DNA of 64,000 bases, taken from a virus. Location: positions 1 through 64,000 of IMG/VR virus record IMGVR_UViG_3300027770_003399, one strand, 5' to 3'. Every line of letters starts with the position of its first letter. Positions within the stretch are counted from its first letter, which is position 1. The position numbers and the translations under genes were made by a program. Below are positions 28,330-43,538 of the stretch, piece by piece. The notes beneath the pieces were generated by a model. It did not search any database. It had not been told where the DNA came from and was given only the letters and a program-made list of their open reading frames with translations.

Positions 28330-29006
28330 AGTGGCTAATTAAATATTAAACTGGCCAATTATTTTTTAGGGTTCGTATCGTTTATGGACCACCCCCGACT
28401 TTATCGCAAAAACTCGGGAGTCCTTTGGCAAACAAAAAAACCCCCTCTCTTGCGGGGGACCTTCTATTGGGGGGGTAGCCAATACCATAGAGGGGTCTTA
28501 TATTGGAGCCCCTCTTGCGGAGCCCCTTCTATTGGAGGGATAGCCAATACCATAGTAGACCCGACCCGTATGTTGAGACCCGAATATAAGTTCTTACGCT
28601 GTAAGGAGTTACGACAAGCTTTCGCCCGCCCGAAAGTTGTAAGTTCTTTGGTACCAACGACTTAGAGCAAGTGCCCTGTGCAAATATCGTGCCAAACTTT
28701 CTACAAAAAAAAATTTTATTTCGCATTCTACTGATACCTTATTGGGGGGGACCTCTATTGGGGGGATAGCTATATCGTAGGTGGGGTATCGTAAACGCAA
28801 CTCGATTGCATTCTATATATCGACAACTTCTCAACATTTTTGAGCACAAAAAAAAAGATTTTTTGAGACGTAAAGCCTTGCTACCCAACAGGTTACGTCA
28901 AAGCAAAAACATTTTTATATTTCCTATTGGACAAAGCGAATGATGTCGATATAATACGTAGAGAAGAAGAAAAGAAGAAAAAGAAAAGAAAGAAAAGAGA
29001 AAAACA

Positions 29007-29261
29007 ATGAATATCGAAAAGATCAAAAAGACGTACGGAACAGATTGCCAGACTTGTGAGCAAGTATGGAATCAAGCGGTTGAAGCCTACAAGAACGACT
29101 TCACCTTTGCTGAACATGTTGACGAGTTCAACAATGATCGTTTTGAGTTCAACTCGCCTGAAGCGATTGAAGCCTACGAACTCAGCGAATACTTTGAAGA
29201 ACACGTTGAAGAATATTATCTTCCAGAGGCTTGGGAACAATACGATTATGAAACAAGATGA
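29007..29261 (+). CDS. Small acidic early protein
   Basis: Follows a promoter and purine-rich leader; Glu/Asp/Tyr-rich. Confidence 0.6.
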   Translation: MNIEKIKKTYGTDCQTCEQVWNQAVEAYKNDFTFAEHVDEFNNDRFEFNSPEAIEAYELSEYFEEHVEEYYLPEAWEQYDYETR

Positions 29262-29292
29262 GTCTAGTAAAGAAAGAAAAGAGAAAAGCATT

Positions 29293-29544
29293 ATGAAAAA
29301 AAACAACGGTCTATCAAAAGTATTTCTAGGAAAAGGTTTCTTTCATATGGAAGAAAAGATGGTAGCGGTAGTGGAAGGAATCGAGACGCCAGTGTTCTGT
29401 CATGGCTCTTTCGGATCCTACTTGATTGTGAGTTCAACCCATTGGAAAAACGGAGGGTTGCGAACTATCGAAGAAGATTGCGTTGTGAAAGGTTTAGCTC
29501 ATCAAACGATTTTAGACTTTCATGGAAAAAGGAAAACAGTATGA
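29293..29544 (+). CDS. GFFHM-family early protein, paralog 1
   Basis: MKKNNGLSK...GFFHMEEKMV...VFCHGSFG; paralogs at 33131 and 33759. Confidence 0.7.
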   Translation: MKKNNGLSKVFLGKGFFHMEEKMVAVVEGIETPVFCHGSFGSYLIVSSTHWKNGGLRTIEEDCVVKGLAHQTILDFHGKRKTV

Positions 29545-29759
29545 ATAACTTTGACGATGTTCCTCTAGCGTTGACAACTATCATTGACAACAGAAAAGAA
29601 AAAGAAAACCTATCATTCTTTGAACATTTTGATATGGATGCTTTTCTATTAGATCAGGATGAGTCCGAGTCCGACTATATACCGGGCTATGATGATGGCG
29701 AATGGGATAATAACGAAGAAGTATATGATACATTCGTAGACGTTAATGAGCGGGCGTGA
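29541..29759 (+). CDS. Small acidic protein, paralog 1
   Basis: MNNFDDVPLAL...ESDYIPGYDDGEWD...EEVYDTFVDVNERA. Confidence 0.65.
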   Translation: MNNFDDVPLALTTIIDNRKEKENLSFFEHFDMDAFLLDQDESESDYIPGYDDGEWDNNEEVYDTFVDVNERA

Positions 29760-30100
29760 TAACTACTCCTTGCGGGGGGGGGATAGTGTACAAACGCTAC
29801 CCCCCTATGAGGGGATACCATTACCCCCCCAACGGACTAGAACTTAAACCCTTACAGCGTAAGAACTTACGACAAGCTTTCGCCCGCCCGAAAGTTGTAA
29901 GTTGTTTGATACCAACGACTTAGAGCAAGTGCTCAGAGCAAATGTTGTGCCAAACTTTGTACAAAAGATTTATTTTGTTTTGGCATGAGAAATTATTCCG
30001 AGAAATTTCTTTTTAGCTATTGCAAAAGCCTAGAAGTGTCGATATAATACGTAGAGAAGAAGAAAAGAAGAAAAAGAAAAGAAAGAAGAAGGATTTTAAG

Positions 30101-30328
30101 ATGAATATTTTTGTGATAGTTGGTTACATTGCGATCTCCGCACTAGTTTTAATCGGTGTCGGCAATGTATTGTTTTACCTTGTCATTCAAGTGCTTGGCC
30201 GTCTTGACAATATGATCCAAAAAGGTGGATACACTTTTCATGGTTGTATTGGAGAGGCACCGAAGATGCCGGAAGTCTGGAAAGATTCCAACGGAGATGA
30301 GTGGACAATATCTTCTTGCGAAGATTGA
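30101..30328 (+). CDS. Small membrane protein
   Basis: MNIFVIVGYIAISALVLIG hydrophobic start after the purine leader; similar start at 32379. Confidence 0.5.
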   Translation: MNIFVIVGYIAISALVLIGVGNVLFYLVIQVLGRLDNMIQKGGYTFHGCIGEAPKMPEVWKDSNGDEWTISSCED

Positions 30329-30673
30329 TTGTTACATGATCTGCGGGTCAGATAGTATCTTCTGGGGGATAGTGTACAAACGCTACCCCCCTATGAGGGT
30401 ATACCATTACCCCCCCAACGTACTAGAACTTAAACCCTTACAGCGTAAGAACTTACGACAAGCTTTCGCCCGCCCGAAAGTTGTAAGTCCTTTGATACCA
30501 ACGACTTAGAGCGAGTGCCCTGTGCAAATACCGTGCCAAACTTTGTGTAAAAGATTTATTTTGTTTTGGCATGAGAAATTATTCCGAGAAATTTCTTTTT
30601 CCCTATTGCAAAAGCCTAGAGATGACGATATAATACACAGAGAAGAAGAAAAGAAGAAAAAGAAAAGAAAGAA

Positions 30674-41291: not shown

Positions 41292-41469
41292 AAGAAAGAG
41301 TGTCTATGAATTATAGTATTGAAACGTCTGAAAGTATACAGGAAGATATACTTACTTGTATTGAGGGGTTTTCTGTCAAGGGGAAGATTACAGATATTGA
41401 ACGGCTGAATGATGCTTTATGTCAGATTATTGTAGACAGAAGGAAGTTATTAAATAAAGGAACTTTGTA

Positions 41470-41808
41470 ATGGGAAAATACTATGTTACTTGTGGAACAT
41501 TGGAAGTTATAGTTCAGGCAGATAATCCCCAACATGCAGTTTGTACTGCATTAGACCAAGCAAATAAAAATGACGAATTAGATGATGGTATAGTTGTAGA
41601 TGAAAGAGGTTTTAGGTATCTTGATCCAGTAAAGGTAGCTAGAAACGAAGCTCCGCCAATGTCTGATGTAGTAAAATGGTTATGGGAAAATGATAATATA
41701 GAAAAATCGGAAAATGTTATGTTCTTTGTACCACAACATTATTTTAGCTTGGAAAATTTTATGGAAGTTATGGGTGATGATGATGATGATGATTTTGAAG
41801 ATGAATAA
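41470..41808 (+). CDS. Hypothetical protein with acidic tail
   Basis: Co-oriented ORF. Confidence 0.5.
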   Translation: MGKYYVTCGTLEVIVQADNPQHAVCTALDQANKNDELDDGIVVDERGFRYLDPVKVARNEAPPMSDVVKWLWENDNIEKSENVMFFVPQHYFSLENFMEVMGDDDDDDFEDE

Positions 41809-42063
41809 ATAGTGGTGGCCCTAAGTCCTTTGTGCTTAAACACTTAGGACAAACGGGCGGGGCCCCGAAATTTGTAAGTTCTTTAGTACCAACGACTTAC
41901 GACTCTTAAAATATTTTTATTTTTTCTAAAAGAATTATTGTTATTTGGCACGGGAAATTATTCCGAAAAATTTCTAAACTAGGGCTTGCATTAAGTCGAT
42001 GATATGGTAGAATCATGTTATGGGAACGAATGACGGTAAACACTTTTTGAAAGGGATGATGCT

Positions 42064-43008
42064 ATGAGTCATGCAGTAGAGACGATGTTTTTTGTTCGAG
42101 AGACCCCTTGGCACGGGCTTGGGGTAAAGTTGGAGGAAGCACCGACTGTGTCGGAAGCGATTGTCGCTGCTGGTCTCGATTGGACTGTAGGGTTGAAAGA
42201 CCTGTTCACCGCCGAAGGTCAACCAGTTCCAGCAAAGGCGACGTATCGTGAGACGGACGGGTCTATTCTGGGTGTTGTTGGCCCACGGTATAGCCCGCTC
42301 CAAAATGCTTCGGCATTTGACTGGTTTCAGCCTTTTATCGACTCCGGCGAAGTATCGTTGCATACTGCCGGTAGTTTGAACGAGGGTTGCAAGGTATGGG
42401 TGTTGGCCGAGTTAAATCGTGAAAAGTCCGAGATCGTGAAGGGTGACGAGATTGCAAAGTTTGTACTCTTGTCAAATTCTCACGATGGTACGACCGCGAT
42501 TAGGGTCGGGTATACCCCGATCAGGGTGGTATGTGCAAACACGATGGCGATGGCCCATAGTTGCAAGGAATCTAAGCTGTTGCGTGTTCGACATACAAAG
42601 TCGAGTGCTCAAAAGCTCGAAGATATACGAGGCATTATGAATAACATAAACGCCGAGTTCGAGGCAACTGCGGAACAGTACAAATATCTTGCAAGCAAGA
42701 TGTTCAATAGTGCTGACCTTCTTAAGTATGTTAAGATCATTCTGGACATTGAATTGTCTACTCCGAGTTCTGAGATTAAAACCAGAACAAAGAATATCAT
42801 GAATGATATACTATCAAGGGTCGAGGGGCCAAAGCAAACGATGGCGGGTGTTAATGGTACATGGTGGGCCGCTTATAATGGGGTTAATGAGTACCTCAAT
42901 TATGAGAAGGGTCGAAGTGCTAATAACAGACTGGACTCGTTGTGGTTCGGGCTGAATGCTAACAGTAACAAAAGAGCTTTTGATACTGCACTAGCACTGG
43001 CTAGCTAA
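42064..43008 (+). CDS. DUF932 family (phage/plasmid-like) protein
   Basis: MSHAVETMFFVRETPWHGLG...AAGLDWTV, TAGSL, LLSNSHDGT, TPIRVVCANT, WAAYNGVNEY, SLWFG. Confidence 0.88.
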   Translation: MSHAVETMFFVRETPWHGLGVKLEEAPTVSEAIVAAGLDWTVGLKDLFTAEGQPVPAKATYRETDGSILGVVGPRYSPLQNASAFDWFQPFIDSGEVSLHTAGSLNEGCKVWVLAELNREKSEIVKGDEIAKFVLLSNSHDGTTAIRVGYTPIRVVCANTMAMAHSCKESKLLRVRHTKSSAQKLEDIRGIMNNINAEFEATAEQYKYLASKMFNSADLLKYVKIILDIELSTPSSEIKTRTKNIMNDILSRVEGPKQTMAGVNGTWWAAYNGVNEYLNYEKGRSANNRLDSLWFGLNANSNKRAFDTALALAS

Positions 43009-43013
43009 TTCGA

Positions 43014-43087
43014 GGGGGTGTAGCTCAACTGGTTAGAGCGTCGGCTTGTCACGCCGAAGGTTGCGGGTTCGAGTCCCGTCACTCCCG
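43014..43087 (+). tRNA. tRNA-Asp(GTC)
   Basis: GGGGGTG/CACTCCC acceptor; TCGGC-TTGTCAC-GCCGA anticodon arm; GGTTCGAGTCC T loop. Confidence 0.93.
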
Positions 43088-43538
43088 CTTAATTTCACAA
43101 AACCGAGAGTCGTAAACCCTTACCACCAAAGGACTTACGATTTTCGGGCGGGGGCAAAATTTTTGTAAGTTGTTGTGGGATAAGGACTTATGAAAATTAT
43201 CTCAATTTCTTCAGACTTAGGCTCTTGACATTTGCTCTAAGTGTCGATATACTAGTAATGGAAGTTGTTGGTGTGTATGGGTTTAGGAAGATTTCTAAAA
43301 TGACTTATGGAAAGGGGATCGGTCGTAAGTCTAAATCTTACAAAATTAAATATCTAATCTTACCCATCTTAACATATCGAGATCAAGTCTCATAACAGGC
43401 CACTCTACCCGGCCACAAATTTTAACCATAGTCAGGATTTTTCAGAGGCCCCTTTTGTTATTGCTAATCCCCCCGGATTGGTGGGCTTGGTGATAGTCAG
43501 CGAGATTCGTAGACCCTTTTATTTTAAGGAATTATTAA

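What the first reader, a model, noticed from the sequence alone, without database searches (positions are those of the whole stretch)
28587..43253. 15-unit cassette array: small genes separated by one composite repeat that supplies each cassette's promoter
Seen: about 15 kb in which 1-4 small ORFs (or an ncRNA) alternate with a 200-300-bp repeat: G/C-tract hairpin, dyad A, 28 bp, dyad B, reverse sigma54 box, AAATTATTCCGA element, TTGCAA-17-TATAAT promoter, purine leader. Paralogous genes recur in different cassettes. Established: T4-type phages have promoter-stem-loop repeats that mediate modular shuffling, and SPO1/T5 cluster host-takeover genes behind strong early promoters. Inference: this is a recombination-driven, integron-like early gene library, with a much more elaborate repeat than a simple promoter stem-loop.
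Basis: partly seen in the sequence, partly recalled or inferred. Interest (0 to 1): 0.8.

Follow-up and report, generated by a model that had tools for sequence, protein, structure and literature searches.

The report
Shuffling promoter-repeat gene cassettes in phage
A large uncultured lake phage has a 15-kb row of small gene cassettes, each behind the same 200-300-bp control repeat, and related phages have gained, lost and reordered cassettes by crossovers inside that repeat, as with the PeSL cassettes of T4-like phages but with a more elaborate unit.

Summary
Window 28587-43253 has 15 same-strand copies of a composite repeat, plus one solo promoter. They separate cassettes of 1-4 small genes. 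No copy occurs elsewhere in the 122-kb contig.

A full unit contains:
- a G/C-tract hairpin;
- two 25-nt dyads, 53 bp start to start, around a GC-rich 28-bp spacer;
- a perfect reverse-strand sigma54-type box;
- an A/T-rich element;
- a TTGCAA-17-TATAAT promoter;
- a purine leader.

Not every unit has every part.

Thirteen metagenomic contigs, 87-99% identical, lack cassettes C1, C5, C9b or C4-C8, or join cassettes in another order. All six mapped junctions lie inside the repeat, at different positions. That fits homologous recombination, not a site-specific system. No integrase was found in this contig or in five complete 200-238-kb relatives.

It works like a PeSL (Arbiol 2010; Comeau 2014) but sits in an unrelated jumbo-phage lineage. 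The paired dyads are conserved across that lineage without base-pair covariation, and half of the lineage's sigma54 boxes place their expected start at a dyad. The function of the dyads is unresolved.

This scan has reported PeSL-like arrays before on other phage DNA.

The parts
28587..28955 (+). Unit R0: dyad A, GC spacer, dyad B (28637-28664), long atypical right part, TGGACA-16-TATAAT promoter
29774..30048 (+). Unit R1, full: G/C-tract hairpin 29774-29805, dyad A 29845-29869, dyad B 29898-29922, AAATTATTCCGA 29990-30001, TTGCAA-17-TATAAT 30020-30048
   Evidence: RNA fold z = -4.0
30364..30634 (+). Unit R2, full; 92-93% identical to R1
31447..31719 (+). Unit R3, full
32602..32850 (+). Unit R4, full
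33461..33708 (+). Unit R5, full; the GC spacer motif is flipped (GGGGCGGG); -10 is TATAGT
34161..34364 (+). Unit R6, without G/C-tract hairpin
34630..34970 (+). Unit R7: G/C-tract hairpin, one copy of the 64-nt element (34686-34749), dyads, promoter
36120..36324 (+). Unit R8
37183..37351 (+). Unit R9: degenerate dyad A, dyad B 37233-37260, short form without the AAATTATTCCGA region
37676..37704 (+). Solo promoter P9b, a 38-nt repeat of the R10 promoter, in front of the LexA-domain gene
   Evidence: (family D9)
38512..38680 (+). Unit R10, short form
39067..39247 (+). Unit R11, preceded by three tandem 64-nt repeats (38860-39051); TTGACA-17-TATAAC
40414..40554 (+). Unit R12, degenerate dyads; TTGACA-17-TACAAT
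41822..42013 (+). Unit R13: dyads, flipped GC spacer, AAATTATTCCGA, TTGCAT-16-TAGAAT
43113..43253 (+). Unit R14, degenerate, directly after tRNA-Asp; TTGACA-17-TATACT
28680..39174 (-). Twelve sigma54-type boxes TGGCAC-N5-TTGC, one per unit R0-R11, each ending 15 nt before dyad B on the - strand
   Evidence: 12 found, 0.05 expected
28961..29765 (+). Cassette C0: genes 29007-29261, 29293-29544, 29541-29759
30057..30351 (+). Cassette C1: one 75-aa hydrophobic protein (30101-30328); absent from three related contigs
30643..31435 (+). Cassette C2: genes 30674-31000, 31019-31231, 31262-31432
31728..32590 (+). Cassette C3: three small genes
32859..33449 (+). Cassette C4: 32895-33125 and 33104-33421 (paralog of 29293 and 33759)
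33717..34151 (+). Cassette C5: 33759-34163; absent in L092
34373..34618 (+). Cassette C6: acidic 72-aa protein, paralog of 29541 and 31262
34979..36110 (+). Cassette C7: four genes, including a DUF7249 protein (35383-35679)
36333..37173 (+). Cassette C8: 36367-36756 and 36801-37208 (Kyano_Gp96-like)
37360..37674 (+). Cassette C9: family-conserved small gene
37713..38502 (+). Cassette C9b: LexA winged-helix domain fused to a family-conserved 130-aa domain (37850-38482); absent in L082
38689..39057 (+). Cassette C10: no ORF; about 170 nt unique plus three 64-nt tandem repeats
39248..40413 (+). Cassette C11: two genes, tRNA-Arg(TCT) 39862-39937, an inner TTGACA promoter, gene 39989-40402
40555..41812 (+). 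Cassette C12: DUF7227 protein and two small genes
42014..43109 (+). Cassette C13: DUF932 protein (42064-43008) and tRNA-Asp (43014-43088)

Best explanation
The array is a PeSL-type region of a large lytic phage. Every cassette is an independent transcription unit bounded by the same intergenic control unit.

Shown from sequence: each unit ends with a near-consensus host sigma70-type promoter, preceded by an A/T-rich tract and followed by an unstructured purine-rich leader. Upstream of it lie strong stem-loop-forming sequences: the G/C-tract hairpin and a pair of 25-nt dyads.

Inferred:
- Host RNA polymerase fires all about 16 promoters early in infection.
- The stem-loop/dyad part ends or insulates the upstream transcript.

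Shown by comparison: the units are 200-300 bp long, direct and about 75-93% identical. General homologous recombination between them, and also between the short purine leaders inside cassettes, deletes, duplicates, swaps and reorders cassettes. Related genomes differ exactly in this way, with crossovers at varying points inside the unit.

Two extra parts are not found in PeSLs.
1. A consensus sigma54-type box on the opposite strand. Its expected start falls at dyad B, so any transcript would run back through the dyads towards the upstream cassette.
2. The paired dyads themselves. They are conserved in sequence, mismatches and 53-bp phasing across the phage lineage, without covariation.

My reading of the dyads is a site recognised by a specific protein that marks the cassette boundary (about 55%), rather than a plain RNA terminator (about 25%). 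This last step is inference.
For: Repeat statistics and strand restriction. Promoter quality and + strand bias.

Folding: the + strand RNA of one unit folds at -64.9 kcal/mol, z = -4.0.

Cassette flux in 13 contigs at 87-99% nt identity:
- C1 is absent in L084, L086 and L089, from three assemblies.
- C9b and R10 are absent in L082 but present in L077.
- C4-C8 are absent in L089.
- C5 is absent in L092.
- L083 joins C7 to C4, and L090 joins C8 to a C4-like cassette.
- L088 is rearranged.

Hybrid units at junctions:
- R1/R2, between dyad A and the sigma54 box.
- R4/R9, between the -10 and the leader; R5/R6; R8/R4, between the sigma54 box and the -35.
- Inside the 38-nt promoter repeat.
- R2/R0, inside dyad A.

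Identity to G000 jumps at unit borders. In L077, C8 is 86.5% identical and C9 98.1%.

G000's own order is corroborated by L082 (10 kb collinear), L077, L074 and L084.

Lineage-wide architecture: relatives with TerL 53-79% identical carry 23-29 same-strand TTGACA-N16-18-TAnnnT sites per 40 kb and dyad pairs at 53 bp.

PeSL definition and behaviour: PMC2839356 and PMC4122927.

No covariation in the dyads. Sigma54 box to dyad distance is 10-17 nt in 27 of 54 boxes.
Against: - No transcription data exist. Promoter, terminator and 'early' timing are inferred from consensus matches.
- Canonical U-tract terminators are not enriched (15 found, 11.9 in shuffles), so how transcripts end is unknown.
- Several variant adjacencies rest on a single short-read contig, and repeats invite chimeric assembly. 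L081 joins the array to bacterial-looking genes and may be a chimera.
- The right half of the array is largely conserved in the family, so not all cassettes are in flux.
- No recombinase gene was identified in the 122-kb contig, which is incomplete.
- The search pattern fixed the 3' arm of dyad B. The covariation test is therefore informative mainly for dyad A and the flanks.
Confidence: 0.75

Rival explanations
1. The paired dyads are a site-specific recombination site, an attC analogue. The 80-nt module could fold into outer box, 7x7 internal loop, inner box and variable GC tip. An unrecognised recombinase would cut and join cassettes there, making the array a true integron-like system.
For: The four half-sites are nested-complementary, with conserved mismatches and a variable tip, and the sequence is conserved across the lineage. 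One junction (L088) lies inside dyad A. The spacer motif and dyad A occur flipped in some copies.
Against: No tyrosine or serine recombinase was found in this contig, and no tyrosine recombinase in five complete relatives. Five of six mapped junctions lie outside the dyads, at different places: in the promoter, in the leader, or between the sigma54 box and the -35. Two rearrangements use the purine leaders inside cassettes. Every cassette has its own promoter, unlike integron cassettes.
Confidence: 0.06
2. The repeats are only regulatory and kept alike by selection on promoter and terminator function. The differences between contigs are short-read assembly chimeras formed at the repeats, not real recombinants.
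For: The repeats share exact stretches of tens of bases. Most variant adjacencies are seen in one contig each. L081 looks chimeric.
Against: The C1-less junction recurs in three separate assemblies. L082 runs collinearly through 11 units, so assemblers can traverse them. The hybrid units carry their own substitutions. Cassette-wise jumps in identity, internal paralogs with 97%-identical tails (29713-29779 against 31386-31452) and order changes in complete relatives are independent of assembly.
Confidence: 0.1
3. The dyad module acts mainly as RNA. Either it is a stable 3' structure that terminates or protects the upstream mRNA, or it is a small RNA of about 90-150 nt made from the sigma54-type promoter in 12 copies.
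For: Strong predicted folds on both strands: z = -4.0 on + and -2.7 on -. The 9-7-9 geometry is typical of hairpins. Sigma54 boxes are placed so that the start falls at dyad B. The PeSL stem-loop is a proven terminator in RB49/phi1.
Against: There is no covariation: observed values equal shuffled values for both candidate folds. Mismatches are conserved. Dyad A occurs in both orientations relative to the sigma54 box. There is no U tract and no Rfam match. No enhancer-binding protein gene was found in the phages.
Confidence: 0.25

Closest known systems
PeSLs (promoter-early stem-loops) of T4-type phages RB49/phi1, T4/PST, KVP40/nt-1 (Arbiol et al. 2010, PMC2839356; Comeau et al. 2014, PMC4122927)
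   Same: Both are repeated intergenic units made of a consensus sigma70-type promoter, an A/T-rich tract and a stem-loop that often has polyG/polyC tracts. Both flank small ORFan genes in a hyperplastic region. Close relatives differ by insertion, deletion and replacement, with crossovers at varying points inside the unit. Neither has a dedicated integrase.
   Different: The phage lineage is unrelated: TerL is at most 26% identical to any listed isolate. The unit is 3-5 times longer. It carries two parts not described for PeSLs: a lineage-conserved pair of 25-nt dyads at fixed 53-bp phasing, and a reverse-strand sigma54-type box. Terminator activity and mini-circles were shown for PeSLs and are untested here.
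Integron cassette arrays (IntI, attI, attC)
   Same: Both are a one-directional row of small, mostly unknown genes separated by imperfect palindromic repeats, with cassette content varying between relatives.
   Different: No integrase was found. Crossovers are not at a fixed site. Each cassette has its own promoter instead of a shared Pc. The repeats are long direct repeats used by homologous recombination.
Host-takeover or pre-early gene clusters of SPO1 and T5 (own knowledge)
   Same: Both are dense clusters of small genes behind many strong host-type early promoters next to the late-gene block.
   Different: Those clusters are not known for a long shared composite repeat or for cassette shuffling at it. 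No terminal-redundancy location could be shown here.
Sigma54 (RpoN) -24/-12 promoters
   Same: There are twelve exact TGGCAC-N5-TTGC matches. Variation is confined to the N5 spacer, which is the conservation pattern of real sigma54 promoters.
   Different: They lie in a phage, back to back with sigma70-type promoters, and point into the dyads. No activator gene was found in the phage, and no upstream enhancer was identified.

Membership tests
PeSL (promoter-early stem-loop) cassettes | Repeated motif with host sigma70 consensus promoter | tested here: met
   16 sites in all: 11 are TTGCAA-17-TATAAT and 5 are TTGACA-type or near. All are on the + strand.
PeSL (promoter-early stem-loop) cassettes | A/T-rich tract upstream of the -35 | tested here: met
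   The sequence between the sigma54 box and the -35 is A/T-rich in all full units.
PeSL (promoter-early stem-loop) cassettes | Adjacent stable stem-loop, often polyG then polyC, acting as terminator | tested here: inconclusive
   A G/C-tract hairpin is in 6 units and the dyad module in 13-15. The fold has z = -4.0. There is no U tract, and termination was not measured.
PeSL (promoter-early stem-loop) cassettes | Flanks ORFans in a hyperplastic region | tested here: met
   Most cassette proteins have no Pfam match. C0-C6 have almost no homologues in relatives.
PeSL (promoter-early stem-loop) cassettes | Indels and replacements between close relatives, with junctions inside the motif | tested here: met
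PeSL (promoter-early stem-loop) cassettes | Mini-circles from recombination between neighbouring units | not testable with these tools
   This needs reads or inverse PCR. The L088 hybrid R2/R0 joint is what a circle or tandem duplication of C0+C1 would give.
PeSL (promoter-early stem-loop) cassettes | Host phage is a T4-like myovirus | tested here: not met
   TerL is only 24-26% identical to Bacillus and Microcystis phages. rIIA/rIIB are present, but the lineage is its own.
Integron | IntI tyrosine recombinase next to the array | tested here: not met
   PF00589 is absent from the contig and from five complete relatives. PF00239 is absent from the contig.
Integron | Recombination at a fixed point in attC | tested here: not met
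   Six junctions fall at different positions of the unit.
Integron | Promoterless cassettes read from one Pc | tested here: not met
   Every cassette has its own promoter.
Sigma54-dependent promoter | GG at -24 and GC at -12 with exact spacing in a TGGCAC-N5-TTGC context | tested here: met
   12 of 12 exact, against 0.05 expected.
Sigma54-dependent promoter | Enhancer-binding ATPase and RpoN available | tested here: inconclusive
   The phage encodes neither, and PF00158 is also absent from five complete relatives. The host is unknown. Planctomycetota are suggested only weakly.
Sigma54-dependent promoter | Transcription starts about 12 nt after the GC | not testable with these tools
   This needs start-site mapping. 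A dyad starts 10-17 nt after TTGC in 27 of 54 boxes.

The most novel reading that the evidence does not exclude
The paired dyads and the reverse sigma54-type box form a lineage-wide switch that PeSLs lack. A specific protein would bind the two dyads on one face of the helix at every cassette boundary. The sigma54 boxes would fire backwards through them, giving 12 antisense or structured RNAs that shut off or process the early cassettes. Alternatively, the folded module is an attC-like site for an unknown recombinase.
Probability: 0.15. Interest if true: 0.8.

Novelty: new variant of a known kind. Interest (0 to 1): 0.5.

Why it matters
It extends PeSL-type modular shuffling from T4-like phages to an unrelated family of large and jumbo environmental phages. 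This supports the idea that repeated promoter/stem-loop units are a general way for lytic phages to turn over accessory early genes without an integrase.

The unit also carries two conserved parts with no described counterpart in PeSLs: phased dyads and sigma54-type boxes. These give concrete targets for finding a new phage or host regulator.

The cassettes themselves are a ready list of candidate host-takeover or anti-defence genes. Those that come and go between strains are C1, C5, C9b and the two paralog families.

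Tried and rejected
- Known phages. Megablast of the array against 50,697 phage records gave no match. TerL by tblastn is at most 26% identical.
- Rfam. Only tRNAs were found, at gathering and at E<=1. The dyad module, the ORF-less cassette and the 64-nt repeats are not known RNA families.
- RNA structure. RNAalifold found only the invariant dyad B stem, with no compensatory pairs. Explicit counts for two folds showed no covariation.
- CRISPR-repeat mimic or REP-like element. 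Rejected: host-type genomes hold only 1-6 copies of the relaxed motif, and the spacing here is 0.6-1.4 kb.
- IS200/IS605-like ends (TTAC/TCAA near the hairpins). This was considered from memory only. No transposase was seen, and the idea was not pursued.
- Dyad A as a LexA operator (TTAC-N3-GTAA). Rejected as general: the inner palindrome is absent in 7 of 15 units and in relatives, and the LexA-domain cassette is dispensable (L082).
- The closest promoter-proximal motif in IMG/VR gave no hit.
- Host assignment. The LexA-domain protein's homologues are unnamed phage proteins. Planctomycetota are suggested only by MAG-binned, phage-like contigs and a few chromosomal motif copies.
- Canonical terminators are not enriched.
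- The fold of the ORF-less cassette is not significant.

Full report
WHERE THE WINDOW LIES. The window is the first 64 kb of a 122,120-bp IMG/VR virus contig. Structural genes lie on the - strand at 1-24.5 kb: tail fibres, major head protein, portal and large terminase. From about 24.8 kb onward nearly everything is on the + strand. Further along are DNA ligase, rIIA/rIIB and glycosyltransferases. The terminase is at most 26% identical to any listed isolate, the best being Bacillus phages Staley/Slash and Microcystis phage MaeS. The array has no nucleotide match among 50,697 phage records.

THE OBSERVATION. The repeat is real and highly non-random.
- The 28-mer core occurs 13 times with at most 4 mismatches. 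All copies are on the + strand between 28637 and 41899, with none elsewhere in the contig. Two degenerate copies lie at 40467 and 43163.
- TTGCAA-N17-TATAAT occurs 11 times, only at 30020-38680 and only on the + strand. The remaining units have TTGACA-type promoters.
- TGGCAC-N5-TTGC occurs 12 times on the - strand, against 0.05 expected. Variation is confined to the N5 spacer.
- Dyad-like 25-mers number 26 in the contig, 25 of them in the array, against 8.7 in shuffles. Eleven pairs are exactly 53 bp start to start, which leaves a 28-bp gap.

The units are mosaics. The G/C-tract hairpin is in 6 units, dyad A in 13, the sigma54 box in 12, and AAATTATTCCGA in 8. A promoter is in all 15, plus a solo promoter at 37676. 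Purine-run leaders follow the promoters and also sit between genes inside cassettes. Two paralog families recur in different cassettes, and neither has a homologue outside the array.

CASSETTE CONTENT. Most products have no Pfam match. The exceptions are:
- a LexA winged-helix domain fused to an unknown 130-aa domain;
- DUF7227;
- DUF932;
- a Kyano_Gp96-like protein;
- DUF7249.

The 130-aa domain is a stand-alone protein in most of the 659 database relatives. Two tRNA genes sit inside cassettes. One cassette (38689-39057) has no ORF. It holds three tandem 64-nt repeats, and its unique part does not fold better than shuffles (z = -0.97).

A scan of metagenome contigs for a unit-specific 20-mer returned 20 loci. 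Thirteen are close relatives at 87-99% nt identity, drawn from several sequencing projects to judge by their contig names. I mapped unique cassette bodies onto them.
- L082 (10 kb) is collinear with the window from C2c to C13 but lacks C9b and unit R10. L077 has them.
- L084, L086 and L089, from three assemblies, lack C1.
- L089 also goes from C3 straight to C9.
- L092 lacks C5.
- L083 joins C7 to C4, and L090 joins C8 to a C4-like cassette.
- L088 reads C2a-C0b-(C6-like tail)-unit-C1-unit-C0a.
- L081 has C3 before C2, but it continues into bacterial-looking genes and may be a chimera.

Identity to the window jumps at unit borders. In L077, C8 is 86.5% identical and C9 98.1%.

WHERE THE CROSSOVERS LIE. 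I aligned the units at six junctions with the two parental units.
- L084: R1 on the left, R2 from the sigma54 box onward.
- L089: R4 through the -10, then the R9 leader.
- L092: R5 on the left, R6 promoter.
- L083: R8 through the sigma54 box, then the R4 promoter.
- L082: inside the 38-nt promoter repeat shared by 37675 and 38651.
- L088: R2 up to dyad A, then R0.

Two further joints use the short purine leaders inside cassettes. Varying crossover points within a long direct repeat are the mark of homologous recombination.

No tyrosine or serine recombinase was found in the contig. No tyrosine recombinase was found in five complete relatives either. The array therefore works like a PeSL region and is integron-like only by analogy. 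Within the window, the 3' tails of 29541-29759 and 31262-31432 are 97% identical while their 5' parts are 76% identical. This points to exchange inside the genome as well.

COMPARISON WITH PeSLs. Arbiol et al. (PMC2839356) define PeSLs as sigma70 consensus promoters with an upstream A/T-rich tract and a stem-loop that often contains polyG followed by polyC. They lie in hyperplastic regions around ORFans. Recombination between them produces indels, replacements and mini-circles, with crossover points that differ between phages, and no integrase is present. Comeau et al. (PMC4122927) extend this to other T4-like pairs. Every sequence-level feature is met here. Terminator activity and circles are untested, and the phage is not T4-like. 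This scan has already reported PeSL-like arrays on other phage DNA.

A LINEAGE-WIDE ARCHITECTURE. A relaxed dyad B pattern matched 58 stretches on about 55 IMG/VR contigs. In most of them the full module (dyad A, GC-rich spacer, dyad B) sits 30-60 bp upstream of a TTGACA-17-TATAAT promoter.

Eighteen of 25 tested contigs encode a terminase that matches the window's, and 17 of them are 53-79% identical. They include complete genomes of 200-238 kb with terminal repeats. The 122-kb contig is therefore probably far from complete. In four such relatives the syntenic region holds 19-29 same-strand TTGACA-N16-18-TAnnnT sites per 40 kb, with dyad pairs at exactly 53 bp.

Nine genes of the right half of the array (C7-C13) are conserved in these relatives, with two local order changes. 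The left half (C0-C6) has almost no homologues there. The 'library' character therefore applies mainly to the left half, which also has the most uniform repeats.

WHAT THE DYADS ARE. The four half-sites are variants of one 9-10-nt word. The inner two are perfectly complementary, and the outer two carry fixed deviations. On 39 module copies, neither the two-hairpin fold nor the central long hairpin shows more pairing or covariation than column shuffles. Several positions are conserved as mismatches. The search pattern fixed the 3' arm of dyad B, so this test bears mainly on dyad A and the flanks.

Dyad A and the C-rich spacer motif occur in either orientation. The phasing is 52-55 bp and mostly 53, about five helical turns. 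This favours recognition of the sequence by a protein over selection for an RNA helix. The unit is nonetheless predicted to fold strongly as RNA.

Across the lineage, 27 of 54 distinct sigma54-type boxes have a dyad starting 10-17 nt after TTGC, at the expected start site. No enhancer-binding protein was found in the phage or in five complete relatives, and no RpoN in the phage.

A scan of species-representative genomes found the dyad B pattern mostly in Planctomycetota MAGs. Some of those contigs look like phage. Others are single chromosomal copies next to tRNA genes or downstream of RNase P RNA. This is weak evidence for the host and for a host factor.

VERDICT. The array is a new, more elaborate variant of a known kind (PeSL). 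What remains open is the role of the paired dyads and the sigma54-type boxes.

Noticed in passing
window 34686-34749, 38860-39051, 43450-43513, 43972-43993, 45843-45997: A second repeat family of 64-nt units ending in TAGTCAGCGAG. It forms a tandem of 2.9 copies at 38860, a tandem of 2.4 copies at 45843, and single copies next to units R7 and R14. Rfam has no match.
   Followed up: partly
window 37850-38482: A LexA winged-helix DNA-binding domain (residues 1-65) is fused to a 130-aa domain. That domain is a stand-alone protein in most of the 659 metagenomic relatives, including one on a 238-kb relative. The cassette is missing in contig L082.
   Followed up: partly
window 26376-27998: A 1.6-kb segment with ORFs 26363-27070 (3' part) and 27118-27978 is absent from the near-identical contigs G001 and L084. 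In L086 other DNA of about 0.6 kb takes its place. This strain-level indel lies just upstream of the array.
   Followed up: partly
L094, L096, L108, L110, L134, L136 (Pirellulales); L104, L128, L140; L122: Single chromosomal copies of the dyad B word occur in Planctomycetota genomes. One set lies in a conserved non-coding stretch about 600 nt downstream of RNase P RNA. Another abuts tRNA genes. A host factor may recognise this word.
   Followed up: partly
L081 (in array orientation, from about base 1880): Array cassettes C3-C2a-C2b are joined at a purine run to bacterial-looking genes: an S1-domain protein, a lipoprotein and an MBL-fold hydrolase. This is either an assembly chimera or gene capture.
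   Followed up: no
window 11440-13134 (- strand): A 564-aa homing-endonuclease/HNH-like ORF sits beside the major head protein gene.
   Followed up: no
window 3401-5875 and 5895-8303 (- strand): Two adjacent paralogous tail-fibre genes share repeated internal domains.
   Followed up: no
window 44000-64000 and contig to about 75 kb: Strong + strand sigma70-type promoter matches continue at 4-6 per 5 kb beyond the array as far as rIIA/rIIB, but without the composite repeat.
   Followed up: partly
L082 (reverse strand, about 3565-3600): At the C9b deletion joint this relative also lacks 16 nt that include the -35 hexamer. The ORF-less cassette C10 would then have no promoter of its own there.
   Followed up: no
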